A DNA stretch of 51,634 nt from Chloroflexota bacterium (GTDB lineage: Bacteria; Chloroflexota; Anaerolineae; Anaerolineales; Anaerolineaceae): positions 1-51,634 of the forward strand of contig JAXHUD010000001.1 in assembly GCA_034189815.1 (NCBI GenBank). Direction: 5' to 3'. The notes below the pieces were generated by a model. The model was given only the letters and a program-made list of their open reading frames with translations, was not told where the DNA came from and made no database searches. A program made the position numbers and the translations under genes. This document shows positions 22,969-50,393 of the stretch, piece by piece; the stretch's first letter is position 1, and every line of letters begins with the position of its first letter.

Positions 22969-24144
22969 TCAGGGCGTGGGTGTGGATGCGGCCGCACCTG
23001 TGGCGTACCAGCTAAAAACCCGTTCAATGCTGAGGTTCCCGGCGGAAACCCAATTCTGGTTGTCTTCCTCGTCACCACCAATTTGGCGGGCGATGAAAAC
23101 GGACCACCGGAAAACGTGCGGTCGACCATCGGTGGGCGCCAGTGATTGGGGAATGATATAGGATGTATCCGTGACGTAATCCACAACGGGCGTCTTGTCC
23201 TCGCTGGTCAGGTCCACAATTGTCACAGCGTAAGCTTCGTCGCCTTCAATTTCGCCAACGGCAGCCCACTGCAGGGTGATTACGCTGTTTGCGCCGACGA
23301 AGGAAGCGCCATCGGCCGGGAGCAGCAGGTTCGGGCCTGGATACGGCGGCTGCTGCGTGGGGGTCGGTGTCGGTCCAGGGGTTGGCTCGCGCTCGCAAAG
23401 CGGAATGCGAAGATTCATATCCTCGAAGACAGTGTCGTTTGGCAGACTGTTGTACTCTCGGATGGTAGTCTGGCTGATATTGTAAGTGTCTGCAATTGTG
23501 CTCAGCGTATCCCCTGATACAACCGTATAATCCAAAACTTCACAAGCAATCTCCGTCTTCTCAACGTCACTTAAAGTCGCTGTTGGCTGAGGAGACGCTG
23601 TTGGGGTCGGTTGGGGGATGCTGAGCTCGTCCCCTTCGAAAAGTGTGCAGTCCGCGGTCAAGTTGTTCTCCAGGATGATACTCTGGATGGAGATGCCAAA
23701 GGCGGCTGCCACATCGGAACAGGTCTCACCGGCCTTCACCGTGTAGGGGATCGGCGGTAAAGGGGTCCACGACGGCGCCTGCGTGGGCGTTTGAGTGATG
23801 GTTGGCGTGATCGTGATCGTTGGACTGGCGGTCGGTGTACCCGCTTCCTGGGCGATTTGCTCCCCGGGTTCGGCAGTACCGCTCGTGTTGTTCAGGATCA
23901 GGAAGACGACTACGGCGCCAAGGGTGATAAAGAGTGCCAGCATGCCTAATGCTGCAGGCAGACTGAGGGTAATCTCAGGTAGCCTTTTTGCACTGACGCC
24001 GCCGGCCTTTCTTGTATCCGCCTTGACGTCTAATTCTGTACCGCAAACGAGGCACCTGGTTGCGGACTCATTCAAACGTGTTCCGCAAACGGGACAAAGT
24101 TTCGTTTTTGAGGTGTTCGTATCTGGGCTCATAATTCTGGACAA
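22969..24144 (-). CDS. Membrane-anchored LysM protein (zinc ribbon - TM - PT linker - 2x LysM - beta-rich C-terminal domain)
   Basis: CPVC...CLVC, TM helix, Pro/Thr repeats, YTVKAGET and YTVVSGDTLSTIA LysM motifs; start TTG 24144 or ATG 24132. Confidence 0.85.
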   Translation of the reverse strand: MSRIMSPDTNTSKTKLCPVCGTRLNESATRCLVCGTELDVKADTRKAGGVSAKRLPEITLSLPAALGMLALFITLGAVVVFLILNNTSGTAEPGEQIAQEAGTPTASPTITITPTITQTPTQAPSWTPLPPIPYTVKAGETCSDVAAAFGISIQSIILENNLTADCTLFEGDELSIPQPTPTASPQPTATLSDVEKTEIACEVLDYTVVSGDTLSTIADTYNISQTTIREYNSLPNDTVFEDMNLRIPLCEREPTPGPTPTPTQQPPYPGPNLLLPADGASFVGANSVITLQWAAVGEIEGDEAYAVTIVDLTSEDKTPVVDYVTDTSYIIPQSLAPTDGRPHVFRWSVFIARQIGGDEEDNQNWVSAGNLSIERVFSWYATGAAASTPTP

Positions 24145-24237
24145 GTATACCTCATGGTTGGAAAGTTATCCAATGACCAGTAAATGGTCAGTAAATGACT
24201 TTTTTGTGCGTAAGGGTGGGGTGGTATAACTAGGGAT

Positions 24238-25419
24238 ATGAACGTGAGTCTGTACATCCACATGCCGTTTTGCCGACATCGCTGCCATTATTGTGATTTT
24301 ATCACAACAACCGGTCAGGAGGATAAAATTGGCGCGTACATTGAAGCTATTAAAAAAGAATTACGGATAGTCATTACACAAAAAATAAATTTTTCTATTC
24401 ATTCGATTTACTTTGGCGGGGGAACGCCATCGATTATCCCGGCAGAGCACTACGTAAATGTGATTAAACGGATCCGGTCTTCCGGCTTGGTTACCGAGGA
24501 TTGCGAGATCAGCATGGAAGCCAATCCGGGCACCATCTCACCTGCATATCTAGAGGGGGTGAGGCGGGCGGGGATCAATCGTCTCAGTCTGGGTGTGCAA
24601 TCCACGGATCCTTTCGATCTGCAGCGTCTGGATCGCATTCATGATATCAACGACGTGCTCAAGGGTATCCGGGACGCCCGAAAGGCCGGGTTTGATAACA
24701 TTAACCTGGATATGATTTTTGCGTTACCCTGGCAGGGCCTCGATGGCTGGCGACGGTCATTGGACCGTGCGTTGGCGCTTCACCCCGATCATTTCTCGCT
24801 GTACTCCCTGATTGTGGAGCCGGGGACCCCGTTGAACACCTGGTATCAGCGCGGTCTGATCGCTGTCCAGGACCAGGACCTTGAGGCAGAAATGTATGAA
24901 CATGCGATGGCGGCGCTCGAAAATGCGGGGTTCGAACATTATGAGACCTCTAACTGGGCCAGGAAAGAGGATACATTTGATTTCAAATGCCGGCATAATC
25001 TGCAGTATTGGCGTAATGCGCCGTATTTCGGGATTGGCGCTGGGGCACATGGTTACGTTAATAACATCCGAACAGAAAATGTCCATTCGCTCGGGCAATA
25101 CTTGCAAAAGATGGCAGCGGAAGGACAGCCACCCTTGCCATTCCCTCAAAGCCCGGCGACGAAAACTTCGGAGACTGTTGACAGATTGACGCAAATGAAG
25201 GATCAGATGATGCTTGGATTGCGGCTTGTAAGCGAGGGTGTTAACAGGCAAGCTTTTATGAACCGCTTCAGCGAGGACATGGCAGGCGTGTTTGCATCGG
25301 AAATTGAATCTCTTTCCGAGAAGGGCTTGGTAGAGTGGGCGGATGGAGATAAAAAAGCCCTGCGGTTGACCCGCAGGGGGGTGATGGTTGCAAATCAAGC
25401 TTTTATGGCATTTGTCTAG
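24238..25419 (+). CDS. hemW: Radical SAM heme chaperone HemW (HemN-like)
   Basis: YIHMPFCRHRCHYCDF (CxxxCxxC), YFGGGTPS, NRLSLGVQS, HNLQYW. Confidence 0.88.
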   Translation: MNVSLYIHMPFCRHRCHYCDFITTTGQEDKIGAYIEAIKKELRIVITQKINFSIHSIYFGGGTPSIIPAEHYVNVIKRIRSSGLVTEDCEISMEANPGTISPAYLEGVRRAGINRLSLGVQSTDPFDLQRLDRIHDINDVLKGIRDARKAGFDNINLDMIFALPWQGLDGWRRSLDRALALHPDHFSLYSLIVEPGTPLNTWYQRGLIAVQDQDLEAEMYEHAMAALENAGFEHYETSNWARKEDTFDFKCRHNLQYWRNAPYFGIGAGAHGYVNNIRTENVHSLGQYLQKMAAEGQPPLPFPQSPATKTSETVDRLTQMKDQMMLGLRLVSEGVNRQAFMNRFSEDMAGVFASEIESLSEKGLVEWADGDKKALRLTRRGVMVANQAFMAFV

Positions 25420-25425
25420 GACAGA

Positions 25426-26475
25426 TCAGATCACAGATACCCGGGTGCCGTAGCCGGTCTGGTAAAACTTATCCGGCGGGCTGACGGGAGTGACCCAGCG
25501 GAAAATCCATTTCGCTTCATGATTGCGCATATTCACGCAGCCGCTGCTCTGCGGCGTGCCGTAGTTGTTGTGCCAATAACAGCCATGGATGGCGATCCCT
25601 CTGGCAAAGAAGGAGCTCCAGGGGACGCCGGGGAGCACGTAAGCGTTGATATTGTCGCGCTCCGTGCCGCCCATATGTTTGGAGGGATAGGTGGCCTGGA
25701 CGGTGAATTCACCGGCCGGGGTCTGTTTTTCCTGCGTCAACGCGCCTGTGGCGACATTGGTATGCATAACAACCTGATCGCCTTCGTAAGCCGTCAATTC
25801 CTGCCGGGAAATGGATATCTCGATCCGTTTCTCTCCCATCGGCACGTCGGGTGAGATGGGGTCAAACTCGGAATCGGGCACAATCCGCATATATTCCGCG
25901 GGGACAGCGTAATCCAGGCGATCCACCTCGTCAACGAGGTGGTACCAGGGCGTGCCATCCGGGCCGGTGATGATATCCGTGATCCAGTGCGTGCTCTGAT
26001 AGTAAAGCCGATAGATCGGTTCCCAGCCATAAGCGGACGAATAGCGCATCGAATTGGCATAGGGGACCGTGACCTCACCGAGCTGCATCTCCCCTTTGAT
26101 GGCATCAACGACGGGGTTGAGCACCTTCTCCACTTCCTGGAGATAGGCGCGGTGGACATAGCCGCCCCAGACCTTATACCAGACGGGGTTGTAATCGGGG
26201 CCGTATTCCGATTCCACTTCGCCGTACACGTTGATGATCTCGTCTTTGTATCGCTGGTAAAGGATGTTGGTGTTAATGTCTTCACGGGGCGTGCTGCGGA
26301 CGCTGACGGATGTCCTTTCACCGGCTTTTGCGATTTTTGCTACCCGCATCAGCTTATGAGAGGCCGACTTCAGTTCCTTGCCTTCGCCGGAGAGCATTGG
26401 GCGAAAAGCAAGCGAACCGAGGCTAAGTGCGCCTAATTTTAGGAAATTTCTACGTGAAAAGGTCTTATTTATCAT
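25426..26475 (-). CDS. Tat-exported L,D-transpeptidase (YkuD family)
   Basis: SRRNFLK Tat motif; TPAGEF, IAIHG...SSGCVNM catalytic His/Cys. Confidence 0.88.
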   Translation of the reverse strand: MINKTFSRRNFLKLGALSLGSLAFRPMLSGEGKELKSASHKLMRVAKIAKAGERTSVSVRSTPREDINTNILYQRYKDEIINVYGEVESEYGPDYNPVWYKVWGGYVHRAYLQEVEKVLNPVVDAIKGEMQLGEVTVPYANSMRYSSAYGWEPIYRLYYQSTHWITDIITGPDGTPWYHLVDEVDRLDYAVPAEYMRIVPDSEFDPISPDVPMGEKRIEISISRQELTAYEGDQVVMHTNVATGALTQEKQTPAGEFTVQATYPSKHMGGTERDNINAYVLPGVPWSSFFARGIAIHGCYWHNNYGTPQSSGCVNMRNHEAKWIFRWVTPVSPPDKFYQTGYGTRVSVI

Positions 26476-33779: not shown

Positions 33780-33811
33780 AAACGCCGGTGATTAATATTA
33801 ACCGGCGTTTT
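33780..33811. terminator. Bidirectional intrinsic terminator closing the ftsZ-like operon
   Basis: AAACGCCGGT-gattaatatta-ACCGGCGTTTT. Confidence 0.8.
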
Positions 33812-33860: not shown

Positions 33861-34085
33861 TTAATGCAGGGGGAAGAAGCCGACGACCTTCCCAATCAGC
33901 AGACCTGAGAGAAAGCCAACAGCGCCCCAAAGTACGGCGAGAATGATGACGAAGCCAGGTTTGGTGTGCAGAACATGATAGATGGCCTTTCTAATTCGCA
34001 GGATGGGGCCACCAACGGCCATGATTGGTGTGATGGCATCCCAAAATTTAATTTCTGCGCGTTTTGTAATTTTATCGAACATCAT
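33861..34085 (-). CDS. Small membrane protein (74 aa)
   Basis: GGAAGGA RBS, 11 nt after the upstream stop; amphipathic N-terminus and C-terminal Gly-rich TM helix. Confidence 0.65.
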   Translation of the reverse strand: MMFDKITKRAEIKFWDAITPIMAVGGPILRIRKAIYHVLHTKPGFVIILAVLWGAVGFLSGLLIGKVVGFFPLH

Positions 34086-34096
34086 GAATGTCCTTC

Positions 34097-34315
34097 CTAA
34101 CGGCTGGTCGAAGTTTTGAGGATGCGACCCTGCTCATCGGCGACAACCCGGATCGTTTGGGGAATGCTCTTACCATCGGGCGTTTTCCCGCTCCCGGAAA
34201 AGATCAGCAGATAACGCCCGCTGCTTTGTGAGCTGACCCTTGGGCGTGTTGATTTGAGCGAAGGGAAGCGACGATACACTTTTTGGCACACTTTTTCGAT
34301 TGCGCTTCGGTCCAT
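34097..34315 (-). CDS. Small basic hypothetical protein (72 aa)
   Basis: Starts 2 nt after ftsZ stop with AGAGG RBS; helix followed by beta-strand pattern. Confidence 0.7.
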   Translation of the reverse strand: MDRSAIEKVCQKVYRRFPSLKSTRPRVSSQSSGRYLLIFSGSGKTPDGKSIPQTIRVVADEQGRILKTSTSR

Positions 34316-34317
34316 GG

Positions 34318-35517
34318 TTAGCCTCTGATACGTTTTCTTAGGAATGCAGGGACATCCAGGTCTGACGTGTTGACCACCGGCGAACTGGCCGCATATGAAT
34401 AGGCGGCTGCGGTGTCCCGTTTGGTGTGGATGGGGGTGTTTTGTTCCCTACGGGGGGTGGGTTCTCTTTTGGGTTCCTCGGGCAGTGTCAGTTCCGCCAG
34501 ATAGCGTTCAGCACCGGGGATCGCCTTTTCGATCGGTAAGGCGCCCAGGCCGGTGACGATCAGGATCGCCTGAGCTCGGTTGCTCAGATTTGCGTCGTTG
34601 ATGACCCCGGGGATGATCTCGGTATTTGCGCCTGCCTGGGCGTGCAGGTGTGAGAGGGTCTCAGTGACCTCTGCAAAGGTCAAATCATCGCCGCCGGTGA
34701 AGTTGGCAATGATGCCTGTGGCGGATGTCAGATCGATATCCTCCAAAAGCGGGTGATGCAATGCCTGATTGAGCGCATGCATGGCTTTGCCTTCGCCTTC
34801 ACCGGTACCAATGGACATCAGCGCACCGCCGCCCAGTTCCATCACGTGGCGGATGTGGGCAAAATCAACATTGATCAGACCGGTTTCGGTCAGCAACTCG
34901 GTAATGCCCTGCACACCCTGCCGAAGGACATCGTCGGCCAATTGGAAAGCCATTTCAAGCGATAGGTCATCGGGAGCGACTTCCAGAAGGCGGTCGTTGG
35001 GAACCGTGATCATCGTGTGGGTGAACTGGCGTAACTTTTGCAAGCCGACGACTGCATTTTTTTGCCGGCGGCCCATCTCGAATGAGAAGGGGGTTGTTAC
35101 AACGGCGATTGTGACTGCACCGATATGCTTGGCGACCCGAGCGGCAACGGGTATGGACCCGGTGCCGGTCCCGCCGCCCATCCCGGCAGCGAGAAAAACC
35201 ATATCCGCGCCGTCAAGGGCGCCTGCCAGGGTCTGGAAGCTCTCTTCAGCGGCGGATTCACCGATGGACGGGATGCCGCCGGCGCCGAGGCCGCGAGTGC
35301 TTTTCGGACCCAACTGGATGTTCACATCAGCCAGGGAACTATCGAGGGCTTGTTTATCGGTGTTGCAGGCGATGAACTCTACCCCAGACATGCCAAATTC
35401 AATCATCCGATTAACAGCATTGCAGCCGCCGCCGCCGAGGCCAACAACTTTAATTTTCGGTGCAGCAGCTTCGATGGGTGTATGGGGTGTCACGCTGATG
35501 GGTTGAGTATCGTTCAT
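34318..35517 (-). CDS. ftsZ: FtsZ-family tubulin-like protein with atypical T7 loop (probable paralog)
   Basis: VVGLGGGGCNAVNRM, NTDKQAL, GLGAGG, GMGGGTGTG, PFSFE, C-terminal DLDVPAFLRK; T7 loop GLINVDFAHIR. Confidence 0.93.
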   Translation of the reverse strand: MNDTQPISVTPHTPIEAAAPKIKVVGLGGGGCNAVNRMIEFGMSGVEFIACNTDKQALDSSLADVNIQLGPKSTRGLGAGGIPSIGESAAEESFQTLAGALDGADMVFLAAGMGGGTGTGSIPVAARVAKHIGAVTIAVVTTPFSFEMGRRQKNAVVGLQKLRQFTHTMITVPNDRLLEVAPDDLSLEMAFQLADDVLRQGVQGITELLTETGLINVDFAHIRHVMELGGGALMSIGTGEGEGKAMHALNQALHHPLLEDIDLTSATGIIANFTGGDDLTFAEVTETLSHLHAQAGANTEIIPGVINDANLSNRAQAILIVTGLGALPIEKAIPGAERYLAELTLPEEPKREPTPRREQNTPIHTKRDTAAAYSYAASSPVVNTSDLDVPAFLRKRIRG

Positions 35518-35531
35518 TTTTACCTCTCACT

Positions 35532-36791
35532 TCAAAAAGTCATACCATGTAACTGTGTTGCAATTTCTATTCCCGATTGGGGAAGGACCTCCACCTGGCA
35601 ACCCGCCAGGCGAAGGGCATTGATTTTTTCTTCGGGGAAGAGCAATGGATCCGGGAAAACGGACACGCGTCTAGCTAAGATTGCTTCTGATACAGAGAAA
35701 CCAATGGTTGGTTGGAGCTGTTTGATGATGGGGCGGACTTTGTTAAGGACCACGTCTGACACACCCGATTCGTGGGCAGGTAGAAGGAGGTAGTGCTCGA
35801 TGGATTTGTCAGTTGCAGCCGATTTCGAGTCGTCCGGTACATCAACAACCTGGTCTGATTTGAAAATGCTCTGCAGGATCGGAAACGATAAGTTACCTTC
35901 CATCAATTCCGTCAGGGTCTCCAGCGAGAAAACACAGCCCAGGATGGGCCCTGACAGTTTGGGCGCTTCGGGTTCGACCTCCCCCAGACAAGCGGAATGG
36001 ATCAACTGCAGCGTTTCGATTACCTGGTCCTTGTCTTGTGGAGGTCCAATCGGGCCGGGATTGCCGGCGTCAAGGATCAGGACGGTGGGTTTTCGACCGG
36101 TCACCCGGTTGAAAACGGCCCGGGCCCATTCATAGTTTTGAAACCCGATCTGGTCTTCCTGTCCGTCGGGCGTGAAGTATGGTTTGGAACCAGCCCACAT
36201 CTCCGGTCCACCTGAACCCCAATTAAGGGATTTATTAAAGGTGAAACCGAAGCTTGCCAAACCGATTTTTTCCAGTAGGGCGTCCATCTTGCGTTGTTTC
36301 AGCCCCTGCATGACCATTTCCAGAAAGGCAGTGTCCCAATAATCCCCACCGGGTTGTAATGGTGGCAGGACCGGGGTCAGTCCGATCTTTTCTGCATAAT
36401 TAGCAATGGGGATAAAACGATCGAGGAAATGATCAATCAGGTGATCGTAATGCCAGCCGGCAGCCGGCCAGGCGGATTTTGTGTTGGGCTTTTCGCCAAG
36501 GATAATAAATTGAACATCCCATTTCGCATAAGCATCAAGAATCACTACCAAGCTATTGAATTGTCGGGCGAGGGGCAGTTCCCCTTTGAAGTGTACGATC
36601 GGTTCCAGCCCGTTTTTCCTGGCGGTCTGGAAAACGTCCTCGGGAATGGCGCGATCGAAACCGGATTCGAGAACGACCTGGGTTGCCCCAAGTTGCCTAA
36701 GGATGGGGAACCAGGTCTCCACGCGCTTACGAACGAGGTATTCCCGAGAGGTGAAATATGAAAAACCAATATTTTGTTTTACTTTAGCCAT
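35532..36791 (-). CDS. Hypothetical protein: degenerate GH-like TIM barrel plus small C-terminal alpha/beta domain
   Basis: 419-aa ORF 14 nt upstream of ftsZ; alternating beta/alpha pattern with GEKPN and LILDAG at positions resembling clan GH-A catalytic motifs (fold is inference). Confidence 0.6.
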   Translation of the reverse strand: MAKVKQNIGFSYFTSREYLVRKRVETWFPILRQLGATQVVLESGFDRAIPEDVFQTARKNGLEPIVHFKGELPLARQFNSLVVILDAYAKWDVQFIILGEKPNTKSAWPAAGWHYDHLIDHFLDRFIPIANYAEKIGLTPVLPPLQPGGDYWDTAFLEMVMQGLKQRKMDALLEKIGLASFGFTFNKSLNWGSGGPEMWAGSKPYFTPDGQEDQIGFQNYEWARAVFNRVTGRKPTVLILDAGNPGPIGPPQDKDQVIETLQLIHSACLGEVEPEAPKLSGPILGCVFSLETLTELMEGNLSFPILQSIFKSDQVVDVPDDSKSAATDKSIEHYLLLPAHESGVSDVVLNKVRPIIKQLQPTIGFSVSEAILARRVSVFPDPLLFPEEKINALRLAGCQVEVLPQSGIEIATQLHGMTF

Positions 36792-36832: not shown

Positions 36833-36848
36833 TGCAAGGGTTATGCCA
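36833..36848 (-). promoter_or_regulatory. Sigma54 (RpoN) -24/-12 promoter
   Basis: Minus strand TGGCATAACCCTTGCA with exact GG-N10-GC spacing, about 43 nt upstream of ATG 36791. Confidence 0.7.
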
Positions 36849-36903: not shown

Positions 36904-37860
36904 ATGATACTTGTCACTGGAGGGACCGGATTTATTGGTAATGTGCTGATCCGGCACCTTTCAAACCTTGGATACTCAATTAAACTCCTCATTCGTCCCT
37001 CAAAAGACACACCAAACCTTCCTCGGGGAATCCCGCTGGAGATCGCGGTTGCCAGCTTGAGCGATGAACGGGGTTTGCGAGCGGCCATGAAGGATGTGGA
37101 TGTGGTGTTTCACCTGGCGACTGCCGAGTCCTTTGGCAGGCAAGCCCAGCTCGAGAAAGTGGATATCCGCGGTACGGAGGCGGTTGTGCAAGCTGCCACC
37201 CGTGCAAACGTAAGCCGATTTGTCTACCTCAGTCACCTCGGGTCAGATCGCATCTCAGCTTATCCGCTCTTGAAAGCGAAAGGCATCGCCGAACATTATG
37301 TTCGTGAATCGGGGTTGTCATATACGGTTTTTCGGTCAGCCCTCGTCTACGGCGAACGGGACCATTTCACAAATGGATTGGCTTTCCTGCTCAAAGCCTC
37401 ACCGGGATTGGTTCTGCTGCCTGATAATGGTTCCGCTGTCCTCCAGCCAATTTGGGTTGAGGACCTGGTGACAACCCTGACCTGGGCTCTGGATATGCCG
37501 GACACGATTAACCAGACGATTGAGATTGGTGGCCCGGAATATTTGACCTTTAGGGAGATTTGCAAATTGATCGCCAGAAAGCTTTCCATCAACCGGGCTT
37601 ATGTAAATACCTCTCCGGTTTTTCTAAATATCCTGACCGAAGTCATAGAAATATTCATGCCCGCTTTTCCGACCTCCGTTTTCTGGCTGGACTATCTGGC
37701 AACGAATCGTACTGCCAGCCTGGATGTCTTACCCAGCCAGTTTAACCTGCTGCCTGCCAAGATGAGTCAGCGCTTGGGGTATCTGGAAGGTAAGCGCTTC
37801 CGCCGGAATTGGTGGCGGATTATTAAAAAAAGAAAGCGAGAACCCATTCGATGGGAGTAA
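36904..37860 (+). CDS. Atypical SDR / NAD(P)-binding epimerase family protein (NDUFA9-like)
   Basis: ILVTGGTGFIG, VVFHLA, RFVYLS, QPIWVEDL, IEIGGPE. Confidence 0.85.
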   Translation: MILVTGGTGFIGNVLIRHLSNLGYSIKLLIRPSKDTPNLPRGIPLEIAVASLSDERGLRAAMKDVDVVFHLATAESFGRQAQLEKVDIRGTEAVVQAATRANVSRFVYLSHLGSDRISAYPLLKAKGIAEHYVRESGLSYTVFRSALVYGERDHFTNGLAFLLKASPGLVLLPDNGSAVLQPIWVEDLVTTLTWALDMPDTINQTIEIGGPEYLTFREICKLIARKLSINRAYVNTSPVFLNILTEVIEIFMPAFPTSVFWLDYLATNRTASLDVLPSQFNLLPAKMSQRLGYLEGKRFRRNWWRIIKKRKREPIRWE

Positions 37861-39305
37861 ACACTGTCTGCGTCCATGCCCACTTCTATCAGCCGCCCCG
37901 AGAAGACCCGCTATCCGGTTTAATTCCGGACGAAAACGGTGCCGAACCTTTCAGAAACTGGAATGAACGGATTCATTCGGAGTGTTATAAGCCGAATGCG
38001 GAATTGGGAAATTTTGCCAAGGTTAGCTTCAACTTCGGGCCAACAATCCTGCGCTGGATGGAGGAGTTTGATCCTCAGACCTATCAGACGATTATCGCCC
38101 AGGAACGGGAAAATTACGAGCACTTCGGAGTGGGGAACGGGATGGCGCAGGCATATAACCATGTTATCCTCCCGCTGGCTTCGACCCGAGATAAGGAAAC
38201 GCAAATCAAGTGGGGCATCGCCGATTTCAAACACCGCTTTGGGCATGACCCGGAGGGGATGTGGCTGCCTGAGACGGCCGTTGATCTGGAGACGTTGACG
38301 CTGCTGGCGGATAACCAGATCCGGTTCACCGTCCTGGCGCCCTGGCAGATCGAAAGCGATGAGCCCTTGTCGGGCCAGGAACCCTATCTGATTGACCTGC
38401 CTGGGGGACGCAACCCGATGATCGTCTTCTTGTATCACCAGGGGCTGAGCACGGCTGTCAGTTTTCAAAACAAAGCGACCCGCAATGCGGAGCAGTTTGT
38501 GGATGACTGGGTACAGCCGTCCTTCGACGCATTTGACGGCGATGGCGATCATTTGATGTTGATTGCCTCTGACGGCGAGCTGTACGGTCATCACAAGACG
38601 TTCAGGGATAAATTCCTGGCCCATATGCTTAATGGCGCTTTGCATTATCGCGATTTTGAGATCACTTATCCGGGGCTATGGCTGCAGCGCCATCAACCGA
38701 GGAAGGTCGTCAAGCTTAATGAATACACATCCTGGAGCTGCCATCATGGCATTACCCGCTGGATGGGCGAGTGTGACTGCACACCCGGCGCTTCGTGGAA
38801 AGCACCGCTGCGCTGGGGGATGGATAAGCTGTCCGAAGCGCTGGACCAACAATATCAATCCTATATGGCCCGTTTCACGGATGATGTTTGGGGATTGCGG
38901 AATGAATACATCACCGCGTTCCTTGGAGATAGGGCGTTGAACACCTTGCTCGAAAAATATATTACGAAACACCTGCGTGGAGAAGACAGAATCAAAATAA
39001 GAATGCTGCTGGCGGCACAATACGAACGCCAGCGGATTTTCACTTCCTGCGGCTGGTTTTTTGAGAATTTTCACCGAATTGAACCACAGAATAATATCGC
39101 CTATGTTGCGCAGGCGATCTGGCTGACAAAACAGGTAACCGGGAAGGACCTGCAGCCGCGCGCTTTGGCGCTGCTCAAGAAAGTGAAGGATCCCAAGACT
39201 GGCTTGCGCGGTGACACGGTTTTTATTGAGAAATATCACCGGATGCAGGCGTTTTCTGAAGATGAAACGCCTTATTTCAACCCGGCCAGTAGTTTTTCAA
39301 CCTGA
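37851..39305 (+). CDS. Glycoside hydrolase family 57 / DUF3536 protein
   Basis: HAHFYQPPRE, SFNFGPT, YNHVILPL, GMWLPET, SDGELYGHH, SWSCHHG, FTSCGWFF. Confidence 0.9.
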   Translation: MGVNTVCVHAHFYQPPREDPLSGLIPDENGAEPFRNWNERIHSECYKPNAELGNFAKVSFNFGPTILRWMEEFDPQTYQTIIAQERENYEHFGVGNGMAQAYNHVILPLASTRDKETQIKWGIADFKHRFGHDPEGMWLPETAVDLETLTLLADNQIRFTVLAPWQIESDEPLSGQEPYLIDLPGGRNPMIVFLYHQGLSTAVSFQNKATRNAEQFVDDWVQPSFDAFDGDGDHLMLIASDGELYGHHKTFRDKFLAHMLNGALHYRDFEITYPGLWLQRHQPRKVVKLNEYTSWSCHHGITRWMGECDCTPGASWKAPLRWGMDKLSEALDQQYQSYMARFTDDVWGLRNEYITAFLGDRALNTLLEKYITKHLRGEDRIKIRMLLAAQYERQRIFTSCGWFFENFHRIEPQNNIAYVAQAIWLTKQVTGKDLQPRALALLKKVKDPKTGLRGDTVFIEKYHRMQAFSEDETPYFNPASSFST

Positions 39306-42300
39306 AATTCCGAATTTATCTCGGCGTTAAGGATGCTCTGAATGAGGTCATAGGCCTGGAAAAGGCTTTCAAAGGCCTCCGTCAGGCTTTTTTCCGGGTC
39401 GGAGATCAGTTGGACCAATCCAACCGTCATCATCCACCAAAGTAGCGACTCAAACGCTTCCTGGTTGAACCAAAGCACGTCTTCAAACCGATTGACGTTC
39501 AGGAAGCGCCGCACTTCTTCCGAAGCGAACCATCTTTTCGCCAGCGATAAGGGGGTCTTCTCATCGATTTGGTTCGTCCAATTTTGCTGGCTGATCAGTA
39601 GCTTGAGGATCGTCACCCCGCTCTGTGCCTGGCCTGTATCCAGCCCCAATGCTTCAAGCGTGCGTTGCACGTGGGCTGAAATGCCCCATTCATCCAGCCA
39701 ACTGCGGCTGATCTCGGCAAACTGCGGCTCAGTCGTGATCACCCGACCTAACAATCTCAGATCGTTCCAAAGCGTAAGCACATACCAAACAAAGGGATAA
39801 GAAACCAGGTTGGTTTGGATATAGTCCAATATGGCTTGATAACGTTTCGATCCTGGAAAGGGATAACGTTCTGCAAATACGGGCAACTTCAGAATCGCTT
39901 CAAGGCCGGCCGTCATCTCCCGGACGATGAGGTCAAGGTCCTGATGTCCATTCACATAGGTGTTGACGGACTGGATCATGGCTCTAAACGTGTTCGTCTG
40001 GACTTGCAGCAGATCCTGGGATAGCTTGGCTTTCTGGTCGGTCAGGCGGGATTGATAAACCGACCGGAGCATTTCAGGATTCACCAGCGCTCCCAACGGC
40101 TCCAGAACGGGGGCCATCCGCAGTTCTCGCAGGGCGTCATCGATACTGGGAACGCCGCTGCCGTTCAGAAGACCTGCCAGCCGGGCATATTGACCGGTTT
40201 CGTCATCCTGAAGTTCCTGAAAGTTCATAAATACATGATAGGCATAGGCGTCCAGCGCCACGGAAAGTCCCTGGTCGCGGATCGCTTGGGAGGAACGGAT
40301 GTATTCCATGTCTGTGGGAATGTCTCTGAACATGACAAAACGAGCCGGTGAAGGTGTCAAACCCAGAGCCTCATGCAAACTTGCCTGCTCCAGGCGATTC
40401 GTTGTCTTATTCAGGAAGGTTGCGGCGGATTTGATCCGTCCCTGGACTGAGCCGAAATGGTTATGATAGACGACCAGGGCTCGGTCCCCCCCGTTGCTAT
40501 TAGAGTAGGCGAAGACGTTCTCATCCACCAGACCTTCATTTGTAATGAAATCATAAAGTTTGAAGTTCCGGATACCTGAGAAAATATCCCGCCGCTTGAG
40601 CAGTGGGAATATGTCATGCTGGTGGCGTTGGACCAGGGCGTTATCGGGTTCTTCGTCCCAATAGGGTCGGTAATATTCCATGCCGTATTTCTCGGAGTAG
40701 CCCTCAACCTGCCCATGTCCGAACATCGGCAGTCCCGGCATGGTTGACATCAGGGTGCAGATACCAAAGTACTTGTCCCCTTTGCCGAATTGCTCCACGG
40801 CTGTTTCCTCGTCGGGATTGTTCATAAAATTGACGTAGCGTTTGAGGATTTGCGGGTCAAATGTGAGCGTGTTCTTGATCAACTGTCGGTATTTTGCGTT
40901 TTCCTCGTTACGGAGCATATTCATGAAGGCGCTGTTATACACCCTGTGCATACCGAGCGTGCGGACGAAATAACCTTCCATCAGCCAGAATGCCTCGGCC
41001 AACAGCAATGTGTCGGGGACCTCCTGGGCGACCCGGTCTACAACTTCCCGCCAGAACTCTTTGGGGAAGGCAGCGTCGAATGCCGCCTGCGTCAGACCGT
41101 ATTCTGATCGGCTGGGGATCGCCCCGCCTGTGCCAGGCTTGGGAAACCAGAGCCGTTGGTAATGTTTCTTTGCCAGGGTCATCGCGGCATCAAAGCGGAT
41201 AATGGGGAACATGCGAGCGACATGCAGGATCGTCTGGATCACGGCCTCACGGACTTCATTTTGCAGATAGTCCAATTGCGCCGTGTCATTCCATGGCATG
41301 CTGGTGCCGTCATTGCCGTGATAAATAAACCGTGTATCGCCGCTGCGCCGGTCAATTCGTTTGAAGACCACCGCCGCGTCGGAGCGGTCATAGTAGTGAT
41401 CTTCGATGAAGATCCCGACATTCTCGTTCGGACTCAGGTCTGGGCCGTTGAAAGTGTAGGAGGGGAAGGGGCTGTGTGGGAGGCCGATGAACCAATTAGG
41501 GTGTTCTATCAGCCAGTCGGAGTCGATACCCATGTGGTTGGGCACCATATCGCTGGCCAGCCGGATGCCGCGCTGGCGGGCGCGATCCCGCAGGCCTTGA
41601 TAAGCCTCATAGCCGCCCAAATCAGCAGCGATGGCATAATTCCGCAGCGAATAGGCTGAGGCCACCGCTTCAGGGTTGCCGCAGAGTTGTTTGATCCGCT
41701 TTGAGGCGTTACTGCGCTCCCAGAGCCCGATCAGCCAAAGCCCGTTAAAACCTTGGCTGGCTAATTTATCCAGTTCTTCATCTGGAATCTGATCCAGACG
41801 GTTGATTTCACGATGATAGGCTTTGGATAGCTGATAGAGCCAGACATAGGCATTCTTGGCAACCATCACCGTGCGGGTCATCCAATCGCTGTCTGCGGAG
41901 TAGTTTTCTTCATCCAGCGCGAACGCATCGTAACTAGGGACTTGGGTCGGTCCGGGGCTTAGAAAAACTTTGGTTTGCTCTTCCTTCAGCACGTCCAGAG
42001 AGCTGAGTAGACGATATAGATACTCCCCGATCAGGTCCCGCCAGCGGTCGCGGATGAACGCCAGCTGGCCGGCCAATGAATGGGGGACTTCGATGGCAGG
42101 GCTTCGGAGCATGGTGATGAGGTCCTGATCATCTGGCCCAAACACGGGTTGGTCTTCGAAGAAGCTTCTGAGTTCACTGATTAGTTTTTTATAGGCTGTC
42201 GTTTCGAGGAGGTCCGTATCGTCAAATAATTCCTGAAAAGGCGCGACTGCCGGGTTCTGGTTGGTGACCCAAAGCATGAGTAGTTCTTCCAGGGCGATCC

Positions 42301-42721
42301 AGCGATTGGGAATATCTTTGGTGCTGGTTTTGAGATATTCCTCGGGGGTCATATCCCCGGCAAAAACGGCTCTTGGAGGAAATTCACGGATAAATTGCAG
42401 AAGCGCTTGCTCAAGCTCGCTTTCAGCTAGATTCGCAGAGACGTGTTTTAAGGCTGTCGCCCAAATCTGTGGATCAATTTGCTCTCGATACCTGGAAACC
42501 ACCAGATGCAGGATCTCGTCAATCAGGCCCAGGGCGTTGATATCACCTGCCCGTATCGCTTGTTCAGGCTGGTTGATGACATCCCGCTGCTCGTTGATAT
42601 TAAAGGCGAAATCACGTGCAGCTTTCAGGTCCGCAAAGATTACGTTTCCGTCGAACTGGAATAAGCTTTGGTTGAAATGGTATTTTTCTCTGGCAGTGCG
42701 CGAGACATGAAATTCAAACAT
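39272..42721 (-). CDS. Large GH13 alpha-amylase family protein with N- and C-terminal extensions
   Basis: DMVPNH, RFDAAM, LAEAFW, FMNNPDE; start at ATG 42721 after GGAGGAGG. Confidence 0.88.
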   Translation of the reverse strand: MFEFHVSRTAREKYHFNQSLFQFDGNVIFADLKAARDFAFNINEQRDVINQPEQAIRAGDINALGLIDEILHLVVSRYREQIDPQIWATALKHVSANLAESELEQALLQFIREFPPRAVFAGDMTPEEYLKTSTKDIPNRWIALEELLMLWVTNQNPAVAPFQELFDDTDLLETTAYKKLISELRSFFEDQPVFGPDDQDLITMLRSPAIEVPHSLAGQLAFIRDRWRDLIGEYLYRLLSSLDVLKEEQTKVFLSPGPTQVPSYDAFALDEENYSADSDWMTRTVMVAKNAYVWLYQLSKAYHREINRLDQIPDEELDKLASQGFNGLWLIGLWERSNASKRIKQLCGNPEAVASAYSLRNYAIAADLGGYEAYQGLRDRARQRGIRLASDMVPNHMGIDSDWLIEHPNWFIGLPHSPFPSYTFNGPDLSPNENVGIFIEDHYYDRSDAAVVFKRIDRRSGDTRFIYHGNDGTSMPWNDTAQLDYLQNEVREAVIQTILHVARMFPIIRFDAAMTLAKKHYQRLWFPKPGTGGAIPSRSEYGLTQAAFDAAFPKEFWREVVDRVAQEVPDTLLLAEAFWLMEGYFVRTLGMHRVYNSAFMNMLRNEENAKYRQLIKNTLTFDPQILKRYVNFMNNPDEETAVEQFGKGDKYFGICTLMSTMPGLPMFGHGQVEGYSEKYGMEYYRPYWDEEPDNALVQRHQHDIFPLLKRRDIFSGIRNFKLYDFITNEGLVDENVFAYSNSNGGDRALVVYHNHFGSVQGRIKSAATFLNKTTNRLEQASLHEALGLTPSPARFVMFRDIPTDMEYIRSSQAIRDQGLSVALDAYAYHVFMNFQELQDDETGQYARLAGLLNGSGVPSIDDALRELRMAPVLEPLGALVNPEMLRSVYQSRLTDQKAKLSQDLLQVQTNTFRAMIQSVNTYVNGHQDLDLIVREMTAGLEAILKLPVFAERYPFPGSKRYQAILDYIQTNLVSYPFVWYVLTLWNDLRLLGRVITTEPQFAEISRSWLDEWGISAHVQRTLEALGLDTGQAQSGVTILKLLISQQNWTNQIDEKTPLSLAKRWFASEEVRRFLNVNRFEDVLWFNQEAFESLLWWMMTVGLVQLISDPEKSLTEAFESLFQAYDLIQSILNAEINSEFQVEKLLAGLK

Positions 42722-42829
42722 AGGGCGGTTGCTCCTCCTCCAAAACAAGTCCGATTCGAATTATACTCGCATCATCGCGCCTACTAAAAGAAAACGCCGC
42801 CCGAAGGTTACTGATTGGGTTCATGAAAA

Positions 42830-44890: not shown

Positions 44891-46231
44891 ATGAATAAGA
44901 AATGGATATATGGATTATTGATCGCAACAATTATGGTCATGACGGGTTGCAGCACGATCAGCCCTTCCCCTATCACCAGCCCAACCGAGGTTGTTTCACC
45001 CACCGAGGCTAATGTGACGACCGATACTGAATATATCAAAAGCGAGATGGCTCGTGAGATGGCGCCATCCGTTGACCCCGCTGACCTCACAACGCTCGCT
45101 GAAGATAATGCTGCCTTTGCGCTGGATTTTTACCAACAAATTCGTGATGCCGACGGCAACCTGATCTTTTCGCCCTTTAGCCTGTCCCTGGCGCTGACGA
45201 TGGCAAAGGCCGGGGCGGAAGGGAGCACGCAGGAGGGGATGGCAGAGGCCCTAAACCTTTCATTACCGGAGGACACCCTCTACCCGGCTTTTGACGCGCT
45301 GCTCCTTGCCATTAATGAATCGAGCGAGCAGGTAACCGAGGAAAGAGACGGTAATCCCTTCCAGCTAAATATCGCCAACGGTCTCTGGGGCCAGGCTGGC
45401 TTCTTATTTGAAGAGGCCTTCCTCGACACATTAGCCCAATACTTTGGCGCAGGGCTCTATACAGTCGATTACCAGAACGCACCGGACGCAGCCCGGCAGT
45501 TAATCAACGACTGGATAAATGATGAAACGGAAGGGAAGATCCCTAACCTGATCCCGGAAGGCGCCATCGATTCGCTCACTCGTCTTGTATTGGCAAACGC
45601 AATCTATTTCAACGGCTCCTGGTACTATCCCTTCGATGAAAACCAAACCGAACAAGCCCCGTTTTATTTGCTGGACGGCTCGGAAACGACAGCTGAAATG
45701 ATGCAGCTTAATGGCGAGCGGCTGGCGTATACCCGCGGCGATGGCTACCAGGTCGTGCAATTGCCCTATCTCAGCGCTGATTTTGTTATGACGCTCTGGG
45801 TGCCTGACTCAGGCGATTTTGAGACCTTCGAGGCAGGGTTGGCCGGGGATCAGATAACTGCAATCAGAGAGCAGTTAGGTTCCGAAGAAGTCAATCTGCA
45901 AATGCCCAAGTTCGATTTTAAAACCAGCACTAATGCAAACGATCCACTCCGTACGCTCGGCATGGACGAGGCCTTTGATCCCGAAGTTGCTGATTTTTCC
46001 GGCATGACCCGGGAAGACAAGCTGCTGATTACGGATGTATTGCACAAAGCGACGATCACGGTCGACGAGAATGGCACCGAAGCAGCCGCGGCGACGGCCG
46101 TCATCCTAGGTGTGACTTCTGCGATGCCCGGTGAACCCATTTCGTTGATCATCGATCGCCCGTTTCTCTTTACGATTGATCACAAGCCCACCGGGACGAT
46201 CCTATTCATGGGGCGAGTCGTGCAGCCCTAA
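44891..46231 (+). CDS. Serpin family lipoprotein
   Basis: Lipobox VMTG-C; FSPFSL, INDWINDETEGKIP, LANAIYFNG, MPKF, hinge ENGTEAAAAT, DRPFLF, ILFMGRV. Confidence 0.93.
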   Translation: MNKKWIYGLLIATIMVMTGCSTISPSPITSPTEVVSPTEANVTTDTEYIKSEMAREMAPSVDPADLTTLAEDNAAFALDFYQQIRDADGNLIFSPFSLSLALTMAKAGAEGSTQEGMAEALNLSLPEDTLYPAFDALLLAINESSEQVTEERDGNPFQLNIANGLWGQAGFLFEEAFLDTLAQYFGAGLYTVDYQNAPDAARQLINDWINDETEGKIPNLIPEGAIDSLTRLVLANAIYFNGSWYYPFDENQTEQAPFYLLDGSETTAEMMQLNGERLAYTRGDGYQVVQLPYLSADFVMTLWVPDSGDFETFEAGLAGDQITAIREQLGSEEVNLQMPKFDFKTSTNANDPLRTLGMDEAFDPEVADFSGMTREDKLLITDVLHKATITVDENGTEAAAATAVILGVTSAMPGEPISLIIDRPFLFTIDHKPTGTILFMGRVVQP

Positions 46232-49309: not shown

Positions 49310-50393
49310 TTAATCTGTCTTTCGGAGATAGGCTTCGATGAAGGGGTCAAGGTCGCCATCCAGCACGGATTGGGTGTCGCCTGTCTCGTGCTCGGTTCGG
49401 TGGTCTTTGACCAGTTGATAGGGGTGCAGCACATACGAACGGATTTGCGATCCCCATTCGGCCTTGGTGTATTCACCGCGCAGCTCGGAAATCTTCTCGG
49501 CTTGCGCTTCCTGCTTCATCTCCAAGAGTCGTGCTTTGAGCACCCGCAGCGCGTTCTCCCGGTTCTGCACCTGGGATCGCTCATTCTGACAGGTCACCAC
49601 CAACCCTGTGGGAATGTGGGTCAGACGCACAGCGGTCGCGTTCTTCTGCACGTTCTGCCCACCCGCTCCGGAAGATTTATATACATCGATCTTGATATCA
49701 TCGGGCGGGATCGTGATCTCATTTGCCTCGTTAAATTCCGGCAGGACTTCAACCAGCGCAAAGGATGTATGGCGGCGATGGGCGGCGTCAAATGGCGAAA
49801 GCCGTACCAGGCGGTGCACGCCTTTCTCCGGGCGCAAGTATCCATAGGCAAGGGGGCCGCTGACGCCGATGGTCGCGCTCTTGATCCCGGCCTCTTCACC
49901 ATCGGTCTGGTCAAGGATGTCCGTCTGGTAACCGTGCGCCTCTGCCCAGCGCAGATACATGCGCTCCAGCATTTCAGCCCAATCCTGCGAATCGGTGCCG
50001 CCCGCGCCGGCATGGATCGCCAGCAGGGCGTTCCCTCGGTCATATTTACCCGAAAGCAGGGTGTTCAGTTCGAGCCGGTCAATCTCGTCCTCGATCTGGC
50101 CGATCTCGGTTCCGAGTTCCGCCATCATCGAATCTTCCGCGATGTCGAGCATTTCAAGGGTGTCTTCCGTGCGCTTTTTGAGCGCCTCATAAGAACTGAT
50201 CGCATCCCGCAATGCGGATTGACGAATCATGATTTTCTGAGCCCGTTCGCGATTATCCCAAAGATGGGGATCCTGAGATTCCTTTTCTAATTTGCTGAGT
50301 TCATCCTTCTTATTTGAAAGGTCAAAGATGCTCCTGAAGGTTCAGCAGTTTTTCATATGCTTCCGTTAATCGAGCGCTCAAATCCGTTGCCAT
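49310..50393 (-). CDS. prfB: Peptide chain release factor 2, programmed +1 frameshift (about 360 aa)
   Basis: GGAGG-ATG at 50393, 23 codons to CTT-TGA-C; +1 frame carries GAGGTDSQDW, RLSPF, GAGGQNV, WGSQIRSY. Confidence 0.96.
50321..50335 (-). other. prfB +1 frameshift site
   Basis: AGGAG-CAT-CTT-TGA-C: internal SD plus slippery CTT-TGA. Confidence 0.93.

What the first reader, a model, noticed from the sequence alone, without database searches (positions are those of the whole stretch)
34843..34881. FtsZ T7 synergy loop has His in place of the catalytic Asp (NVDFAH)
Seen: GGT CTG ATC AAT GTT GAT TTT GCC CAC ATC = GLINVDFAHI, with the His codon CAC at 34855-34857. GTP-binding motifs (GGGGCN, GAGG, GGGTGTG, PFSFE) and the C-terminal DVPAFLR peptide are intact. 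Established: FtsZ has NxDxxD here, and the second Asp (E. coli D212) is needed for GTP hydrolysis in trans; D212 mutants form stable, non-treadmilling filaments and are dominant-negative. Inference: a naturally hydrolysis-poor FtsZ acting as a static scaffold or as a modulator of the main FtsZ. Caveat: GAC to CAC is one base, so a sequencing error or private mutation is possible.
Basis: partly seen in the sequence, partly recalled or inferred. Interest (0 to 1): 0.8.

Follow-up and report, generated by a model that had tools for sequence, protein, structure and literature searches.

The report
Histidine-braked second FtsZ of Anaerolineales
This bacterium, like most sampled genomes of its order, carries its normal cell-division protein FtsZ plus a second conserved copy in which one catalytic aspartate is a histidine, so the copy likely forms slow, long-lived filaments that are probably made only on a signal.

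Summary
The His is real and is a lineage trait, not an error. The gene (34318-35517, minus strand) is the genome's second ftsZ; a canonical Asp copy follows ftsA in the dcw cluster on another contig. The His motif occurs in 154 of 251 order genomes, 14 of 17 families. Among 90 hand-picked paralog loci the site is His 69, Asn 15, Asp 5, Ala 1; 39 of 39 dcw copies have Asp. The other catalytic and interface residues are kept and the gene is under purifying selection. It lies in a four-gene unit behind a sigma-54 motif, after a glycosidase-fold gene. One sister family shows a single ftsZ in 28 of 28 genomes, and 5 of 5 tested lack sigma-54 and the partner. Best reading: a conditional, slowly hydrolysing accessory FtsZ, parallel to beta-tubulin Lys254; no activity was measured. 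Ten paper searches did not find it. This scan reported it before on other DNA (e1-7112650).

The parts
36833..36848 (-). sigma-54-type -24/-12 motif TGGCA-N6-TTGCA, 56 nt before the partner gene
   Evidence: Sequence; motif in 25 of 33 partner upstream regions; genome has rpoN with the same motif upstream and one GAFTGA-type activator motif. Function inferred.
35532..36791 (-). 419-aa partner gene: clan GH-A-like TIM barrel plus small C-terminal alpha/beta domain, no family hit, both catalytic Glu positions changed
   Evidence: AF2 model pLDDT 89.9; best match GH39 1w91, Z 18.5, rmsd 3.3, 261 aligned; no Pfam or NCBIfam hit; K and D at the two Glu columns.
34318..35517 (-). ftsZ paralog, 399 aa (FtsZ2)
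   Evidence: TIGR00065 359 bits, cut-off 295; 46% identical to the dcw copy; model matches B. subtilis FtsZ, rmsd 1.3 over 304 columns.
34855..34857 (-). His221 in place of the second T7/H8 Asp (B. subtilis D213)
   Evidence: conserved.
34864..34866 (-). Asp218, first T7 Asp (D210 equivalent), kept
   Evidence: 68 of 69 His forms; numbering.
35065..35076 (-). M148-G-R-R151: FEG changed to FEM, with the R143-equivalent Arg kept
   Evidence: G in 39 of 39 dcw copies; M 32, V 11, L 8 among 69 His forms; R151 in 69 of 69.
34336..34362 (-). C-terminal conserved peptide DLDVPAFLR
   Evidence: Sequence; motif in 65 of 69 His forms and 33 of 39 dcw copies.
34097..34315 (-). 72-aa conserved ORF starting 2 nt after the ftsZ stop
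   Evidence: homolog in 75 of 90 paralog loci and 0 of 39 dcw loci; no Pfam hit.
33861..34085 (-). 74-aa conserved ORF with a hydrophobic C-terminal stretch
   Evidence: homolog in 59 of 90 paralog loci and 0 of 39 dcw loci; no Pfam hit.
33780..33810 (-). 10-bp hairpin followed by a U-rich tract between convergent genes, likely terminator
   Evidence: -15 kcal/mol, z -3.4; not listed by the consensus scan, whose loop limit is 8 nt.

Best explanation
This is a second, non-dcw FtsZ whose T7/H8 face carries His instead of the second catalytic Asp, so it likely still binds GTP and polymerises but likely hydrolyses slowly, giving long-lived filaments that are probably made only when sigma-54 is activated. 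Shown: the substitution, the second canonical copy, the kept pocket and interface residues, the operon, the motif and the co-absence pattern. Inferred: step 1, the activator and sigma-54 switch on partner-ftsZ2-72aa-74aa; step 2, FtsZ2 docks on FtsA by its C-terminal peptide; step 3, wherever FtsZ2 sits on top of another subunit, the GTP beneath is hydrolysed slowly, which damps treadmilling; step 4, the steadier ring serves a conditional envelope-remodelling programme and not routine division.
For: Canonical Asp copy after ftsA in the same genome. Non-Asp in 85 of 90 paralog loci against 0 of 39 dcw copies; His, Asn and Ala all remove the carboxylate. Among 69 His forms D54, G80, R151 and N216 are invariant, D218 is in 68 and Q56 in 67; these match five of the six residues that PMC8936486 names as key for assembly or hydrolysis, plus G72. 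dN/dS 0.01-0.09 in five close pairs; 7 of 9 strain-level differences are synonymous. E. coli D212G: 14% GTPase, 6.7% treadmilling. Beta-tubulin has Lys254 for the catalytic Glu, which leaves the N-site unhydrolysed (PMC8956254 passages); equivalence of that position to FtsZ D213 is recalled. Sigma-54 motif in 25 of 33 upstream regions. Second ftsZ, partner and rpoN are all not found in 5 of 5 tested genomes of family f2 and in G849 of f136, while control genomes ring. Two His loci outside the order lie among MraZ, Amidase_2, LysM and SpoIID-domain genes, with an LCP gene in the one locus where the fetched stretch showed it. SepF not found in 5 of 5 genomes.
Against: No activity or localisation was measured. 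S. aureus D213N suppresses assembly, and D210, which is kept, is the main water-positioning residue. Asp stands in 5 of 90 paralog loci and two further Asp forms lie in the clade; the non-Asp forms are not one clade (AU p 0.004), so the role does not strictly need a brake. 13 loci with 220 nt or more of upstream DNA lack the sigma-54 motif directly before the partner. The paralog evolves 1.9 to 3.8 times faster than the dcw copy in six pairs, and many C-terminal-domain positions differ between the two sets, which may hinder co-polymerisation. The amidase, LysM and SpoIID genes do not flank the gene in this window.
Confidence: 0.55

Rival explanations
1. His (or Asn) is a working substitute: it hydrogen-bonds the catalytic water, D218 does the chemistry, and FtsZ2 is an ordinary or only mildly slower GTPase used under sigma-54 control.
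For: D213 keeps its position during catalysis and provides environment, D210 moves the water. All other catalytic residues are kept. His is fixed in 35 of 35 family loci, as expected for a residue with a job. The site toggles among H, N and D (15 changes on 79 rows).
Against: Asp is fixed in 39 of 39 dcw copies and in 137 of 153 domains from the 150 representatives. Ala and Ser also occur in the clade. Substitutions here cut activity or assembly in E. coli and S. aureus.
Confidence: 0.18
2. FtsZ2 assembles poorly by itself and acts as an inducible capper or sequestering inhibitor of the dcw FtsZ, using its intact GTP-bound face, so that division is paused on a signal.
For: S. aureus D213N suppresses assembly. 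The FEG to FEM change and many fixed differences in the C-terminal domain could alter the interface. Conditional promoter motif.
Against: Both polymer faces are conserved, including N216 and D218, and a pure capper would not need both. The FtsA-type peptide is kept in 65 of 69.
Confidence: 0.17
3. A redundant duplicate under relaxed selection in which the catalytic site drifts.
For: Faster evolution than the dcw copy; very long branches for L085, L086 and P0258; not found in family f2.
Against: dN/dS far below 1; His motif in 154 of 251 genomes; conserved gene order and promoter motif.
Confidence: 0.05
5. Sequencing error or private mutation (GAC to CAC).
For: One base separates the codons; an isolated His in one Bacillota record cut at a contig end may be such a case (L211).
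Confidence: 0.005

Closest known systems
Canonical bacterial FtsZ (TIGR00065; B. subtilis, S. aureus, E. coli)
   Same: Fold, GTP pocket, R143, N208 and D210 equivalents, C-terminal peptide.
   Different: His for D213; FEG mostly FEM/V/L; outside dcw; second copy; sigma-54 motif.
beta-tubulin Lys254 over the non-hydrolysing N-site (PMC8956254, passages)
   Same: A paralog whose catalytic acid on the T7/H8 face is replaced by a basic residue while its own pocket is intact.
   Different: FtsZ family, not tubulin; no evidence for an obligate alternating heterodimer; His, Asn, Ala or Asp instead of a fixed Lys.
Plastid FtsZ1/FtsZ2 pair (PMC8142252, passages)
   Same: Two FtsZ paralogs in one cell, one proposed to stabilise and one to promote turnover.
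   Different: Both plant proteins are GTPases and only FtsZ2 has the C-terminal peptide; here both copies keep the peptide and one lacks the Asp.
Laboratory mutants E. coli D212A/G and S. aureus D213N (10.1101/077610, PMC8936486, passages)
   Same: Same position changed.
   Different: Engineered single changes in the only FtsZ; here natural, fixed, and on a co-adapted second copy.
Extra non-dcw ftsZ copies in bacteria such as Bipolaricaulota and CPR, and archaeal FtsZ1/FtsZ2 (PMC9871819, passages)
   Same: Second copy outside the dcw cluster, read as subfunctionalisation.
   Different: The passages seen do not name Anaerolineae (0 occurrences) or a catalytic substitution; its supplementary trees were not seen.

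Membership tests
FtsZ (TIGR00065) | HMM score above curated cut-off; Tubulin plus FtsZ_C domains | tested here: met
   359 bits against 295; PF00091 and PF12327.
FtsZ (TIGR00065) | GTP-binding loops and GGGTGTG signature | tested here: met
   Invariant or nearly so in 69 His forms.
FtsZ (TIGR00065) | T7/H8 motif NxDxxD/E with both acids | tested here: not met
   NVDFAH; H221 aligns to D213.
FtsZ (TIGR00065) | C-terminal conserved peptide | tested here: met
   65 of 69.
Housekeeping dcw FtsZ | Adjacent to ftsA in the dcw cluster | tested here: not met
   The other copy holds that place; the two lie in separate clades.
FtsZ (TIGR00065) | GTP-dependent polymerisation, GTPase, Z-ring localisation | not testable with these tools
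   Needs protein and cells.
alpha/beta-tubulin-like asymmetric heteropolymer | One paralog with a basic residue at the catalytic acid position beside one with the acid | tested here: met
   H221 against D in the dcw copy; tubulin side.
alpha/beta-tubulin-like asymmetric heteropolymer | Obligate alternating co-assembly | not tested
   No heterodimer model was run; unlinked genes and absence of the second copy in f2 argue against an obligate pair.
Clan GH-A glycoside hydrolase (partner) | (beta/alpha)8 barrel | tested here: met
   Z 18.5 to GH39, 17.4 to GH128.
Clan GH-A glycoside hydrolase (partner) | Glu at the ends of strands 4 and 7 | tested here: not met
   0 of 84 order-level partners have both; 4 loci outside the order do. 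Columns assigned from the NEP motif, which is recalled.
sigma-54 regulon | -24/-12 motif, rpoN and activator in the genome | tested here: met
   rpoN scores 256 bits, under the 277 cut-off.
sigma-54 regulon | rpoN-dependent transcript | not testable with these tools
   Needs RNA data or genetics.

The most novel reading that the evidence does not exclude
Anaerolineales have evolved, independently of tubulin, an alpha/beta-like two-subunit FtsZ filament: on a sigma-54 signal the His paralog co-assembles with the dcw FtsZ so that interfaces capped by His trap GTP like the tubulin N-site while interfaces capped by Asp hydrolyse it, and the His/Asn/Asp toggle tunes ring dynamics between lineages.
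Probability: 0.15. Interest if true: 0.9.

Novelty: new variant of a known kind. Interest (0 to 1): 0.62.

Why it matters
FtsZ treadmilling is set by GTP hydrolysis, and the T7 acids are treated as near-invariant. An order-wide natural paralog that has dropped one of them while keeping the rest of the active site gives a ready-made test of what the second Asp does and whether a static or slow FtsZ can be a regulated tool of the cell. It also offers a bacterial model for how a catalytic/non-catalytic paralog pair, as in alpha/beta-tubulin, can arise. Named strains carry it (Thermanaerothrix daxensis GNS-1, Anaerolinea thermolimosa IMO-1, Leptolinea tardivitalis YMTK-2, Longilinea arvoryzae KOME-1, Ornatilinea apprima P3M-1), and natural His, Asn, Ala and Asp alleles exist for comparison.

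Tried and rejected
Complex prediction of FtsZ2 (residues 10-399) with the partner: no verdict, score 0.00 in two runs, controls not folded; not used for or against binding. No RNA holder listed among sequencing runs. Pfam scan of 55 partner sequences: one weak EpmC hit at E 0.012, ignored. Atlas feature search for the partner: unnamed Chloroflexota clusters only above 0.9. Foldseek on the partner gave mixed TIM barrels at TM about 0.4; its C-terminal domain was barely tested by the fold searches; a likeness to cell-wall-binding repeat 2 is recalled only and was not confirmed. The phylum pattern hit in G235 lies on a contig other than its two ftsZ matches and was treated as chance; 4 of 119 GTDB scan loci are not FtsZ. 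My idea that loss of the partner's Glu residues tracks loss of the FtsZ Asp failed inside the order: the three Asp forms there also have partners without them, and two His loci outside the order have partner homologs with the acid/base Glu. The sigma-70 and terminator scan was at chance level. Ten paper searches found no description of this paralog; the library lacks most subscription papers and no supplements were read.

Full report
Observation. The ORF at 34318-35517 (minus strand, 399 aa) is an FtsZ by NCBIfam and Pfam. It reads NVDFAH, with CAC at 34855-34857. In the alignment to B. subtilis FtsZ, H221 is D213, D218 is D210, N216 is N208, R151 is R143, D54 is D46 and Q56 is Q48. The AF2 model (pLDDT 79) matches solved FtsZ at rmsd 1.3 over 304 columns.

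Not an error. Contigs from 4 of 4 runs span the codon without a difference; they come from one study and may include the source. Of 9 differences carried by the long contigs, 7 are synonymous, 2 are missense and none touches codon 221. His stands in 121 of 121 proteins examined, namely the query, its identical copy and the other 119 of the best 120 hits listed out of 7,999 scored. A DNA pattern for the His motif matched 154 of 251 genomes of the order, in 14 of 17 families, with no match for the reversed pattern. CAC and CAT are used 38 and 33 times.

A second copy. The genome holds another ftsZ, 46% identical, with NLDFAD, directly after ftsA at the end of a dcw cluster (G000:C209). In the family, 147 of 150 genomes match and 133 have two or more matches (counted by eye from the table). 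Homolog labels name Anaerolineaceae, Anaerolineales and Chloroflexota; that the coded family f1 is Anaerolineaceae is my inference. In a capped GTDB scan, 113 of 119 loci are His FtsZ from records titled Chloroflexota, one is unclassified, one is a Bacillota record cut at a contig end and four are not FtsZ. A stricter pattern matched 13 of 401 phylum genomes: 12 in the order and one judged chance.

History of the site. I built a quick tree of 126 rows (108 loci, 18 representatives) on residues 19-325 without column 221. I left out duplicates, two divergent or truncated rows, 20 near-redundant loci and about half of the family's His rows. The paralogs form one clade of 79 rows (SH-aLRT 96), apart from all ftsA-adjacent copies (40-row group, support 84). 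The model was LG+G4 without mixture and long branches are present, so support is to be read with care. The clade includes His forms from two families outside the order (L071, L075) and Asp forms from three others (L033/L034, L035, L061). Among 90 paralog loci, chosen as top hits or by hand and so not a random sample, the site is His 69, Asn 15, Asp 5, Ala 1; 39 of 39 dcw copies have Asp. Parsimony needs 15 changes, 5 for Asp against non-Asp. Holding the 72 non-Asp rows together is rejected (p-AU 0.004; the group was named by state after the first tree was seen). So the site is fixed as His in this family (35 of 35) but toggles in the wider clade; gain and loss cannot be ordered from this.

What is kept and what changed. 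In 69 His forms D54, G80, R151, N216 and the GTP loops are invariant or nearly so, D218 is in 68, Q56 in 67 and the C-terminal peptide in 65. Changes against the dcw set include G148 to M/V/L, P182, K244, H255 and many positions of the C-terminal domain. dN/dS is 0.01-0.09 in five close pairs and 0.32 for one His-versus-Asp pair; dN is 1.9 to 3.8 times that of the dcw copy in six genome pairs. The gene is constrained but faster than the housekeeping copy.

Context. The minus strand carries a sigma-54-type motif (36848-36833), a 419-aa gene, ftsZ2, a 72-aa ORF, a 74-aa ORF and a hairpin. The motif is in 25 of 33 partner upstream regions, several misses having little upstream DNA. In the wider set 13 loci with 220 nt or more upstream lack it; in the one long locus read, another gene of the same strand lies directly upstream (L152). 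The strict motif occurs 13 times in the genome against 4.3 expected, once before rpoN; no intergenic match lies before the dcw cluster. The partner folds as a clan GH-A-like barrel; 0 of 84 order-level partners keep both catalytic Glu positions, while 4 loci outside the order do. The 72-aa and 74-aa ORFs occur in 75 and 59 of 90 paralog loci and in 0 of 39 dcw loci. Two His loci outside the order sit among C25-type peptidase (Pfam hit in L154), MraZ, Amidase_2, LysM and SpoIID-domain genes, with LCP in L154; these genes do not flank the gene in this window. Family f2 shows one ftsZ in 28 of 28 genomes, and 5 of 5 near-complete f2 genomes lack rpoN and the partner. G849 of family f136 (96% complete, 80 contigs) shows the same triple absence, while control genomes ring. 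That is at most two events, not a statistic. SepF was not found in 5 of 5 genomes.

Mechanism. From passages of 10.1101/077610, E. coli D212G keeps 14% of GTPase and 6.7% of treadmilling speed and was built at the chromosomal locus. From passages of PMC8936486, D210 and D213 hold the precatalytic water, D210 moves it, D213 provides environment, and D213N suppresses S. aureus assembly. From passages of PMC8956254, beta-tubulin has Lys254 for the catalytic Glu, which abolishes hydrolysis at the N-site. I infer that FtsZ2 binds GTP and polymerises, since both faces are conserved, but hydrolyses slowly at interfaces it caps. It would reach the membrane through FtsA and be made on a sigma-54 signal to give a steadier ring for a conditional envelope programme (0.55). 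A working His substitute (0.18) and an assembly-poor inhibitor (0.17) remain open. None of these steps was measured.

Comparison and novelty. It is an FtsZ by score, fold and motifs but fails the NxDxxD test and is not the dcw FtsZ. It may work like beta-tubulin or like the stabilising member of the plastid pair (PMC8142252 passages), but belongs to neither. Ten searches found no description. Passages of PMC9871819 mention extra non-dcw copies in other phyla and never Anaerolineae; passages of PMC10608941 and 10.1101/2025.08.19.671072 do not mention a second copy. Supplements were not read and could show the copy in a tree. The scan has reported the same His paralog on another genome (e1-7112650), and its sigma-54 notes prompted my promoter check; these are unchecked notes and not support. 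Verdict: real, conserved, new variant of a known kind, interest 0.62.

Noticed in passing
window 49310-50392 (minus): prfB has the CTT TGA C slippery stop near 50323-50329 behind an internal AGGAG, the ordinary programmed +1 frameshift (pattern recalled).
   Followed up: partly
window 44891-46231 (plus): A full-length bacterial serpin, PF00079 362 bits.
   Followed up: no
window 22969-26475: A LysM protein (22969-24144) and an L,D-transpeptidase YkuD gene (25426-26475) lie about 8-11 kb from ftsZ2; no link tested.
   Followed up: no
window 36904-42748: An NAD-dependent epimerase is divergent from the operon, followed by a GH57/DUF3536 gene and a 1158-aa alpha-amylase-domain gene; the epimerase and GH57 order is kept in G045.
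   Followed up: partly
L154:431-15987 and L155:119-16001: Outside the order, His-ftsZ sits in a cluster with a second MraZ, amidase, LysM proteins and a partner-like barrel fused to a SpoIID domain, resembling a second envelope-remodelling cluster.
   Followed up: partly
L084:255-2538 (G603): Two ftsZ genes in tandem outside dcw, in a genome with three copies; one reads NVDLRD and lacks the C-terminal peptide.
   Followed up: no
L036, L052, L057 (family f8): A separate duplication: non-dcw Asp copies that group with the family's own dcw copies, not with the His clade.
   Followed up: partly
L085, L086 (genus g10): Very divergent His paralogs (branch 1.07, under the TIGR00065 cut-off) that still keep His, partner and sigma-54 motif.
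   Followed up: partly
L028:1489-2670: One family member reads NVNFAH and so lacks both T7 acids.
   Followed up: no
P0242, P0244, P0247: Proteins with two FtsZ domains in one chain (744-840 aa); origin unknown, could be fusions or gene-calling artefacts.
   Followed up: no
G000:C99, C102, C254, C32, C206: Other strict sigma-54 motifs in the genome lie before rpoN, a 111-aa gene just after the activator, a 682-aa gene, a 358-aa gene and a 325-aa gene: a small candidate regulon.
   Followed up: partly
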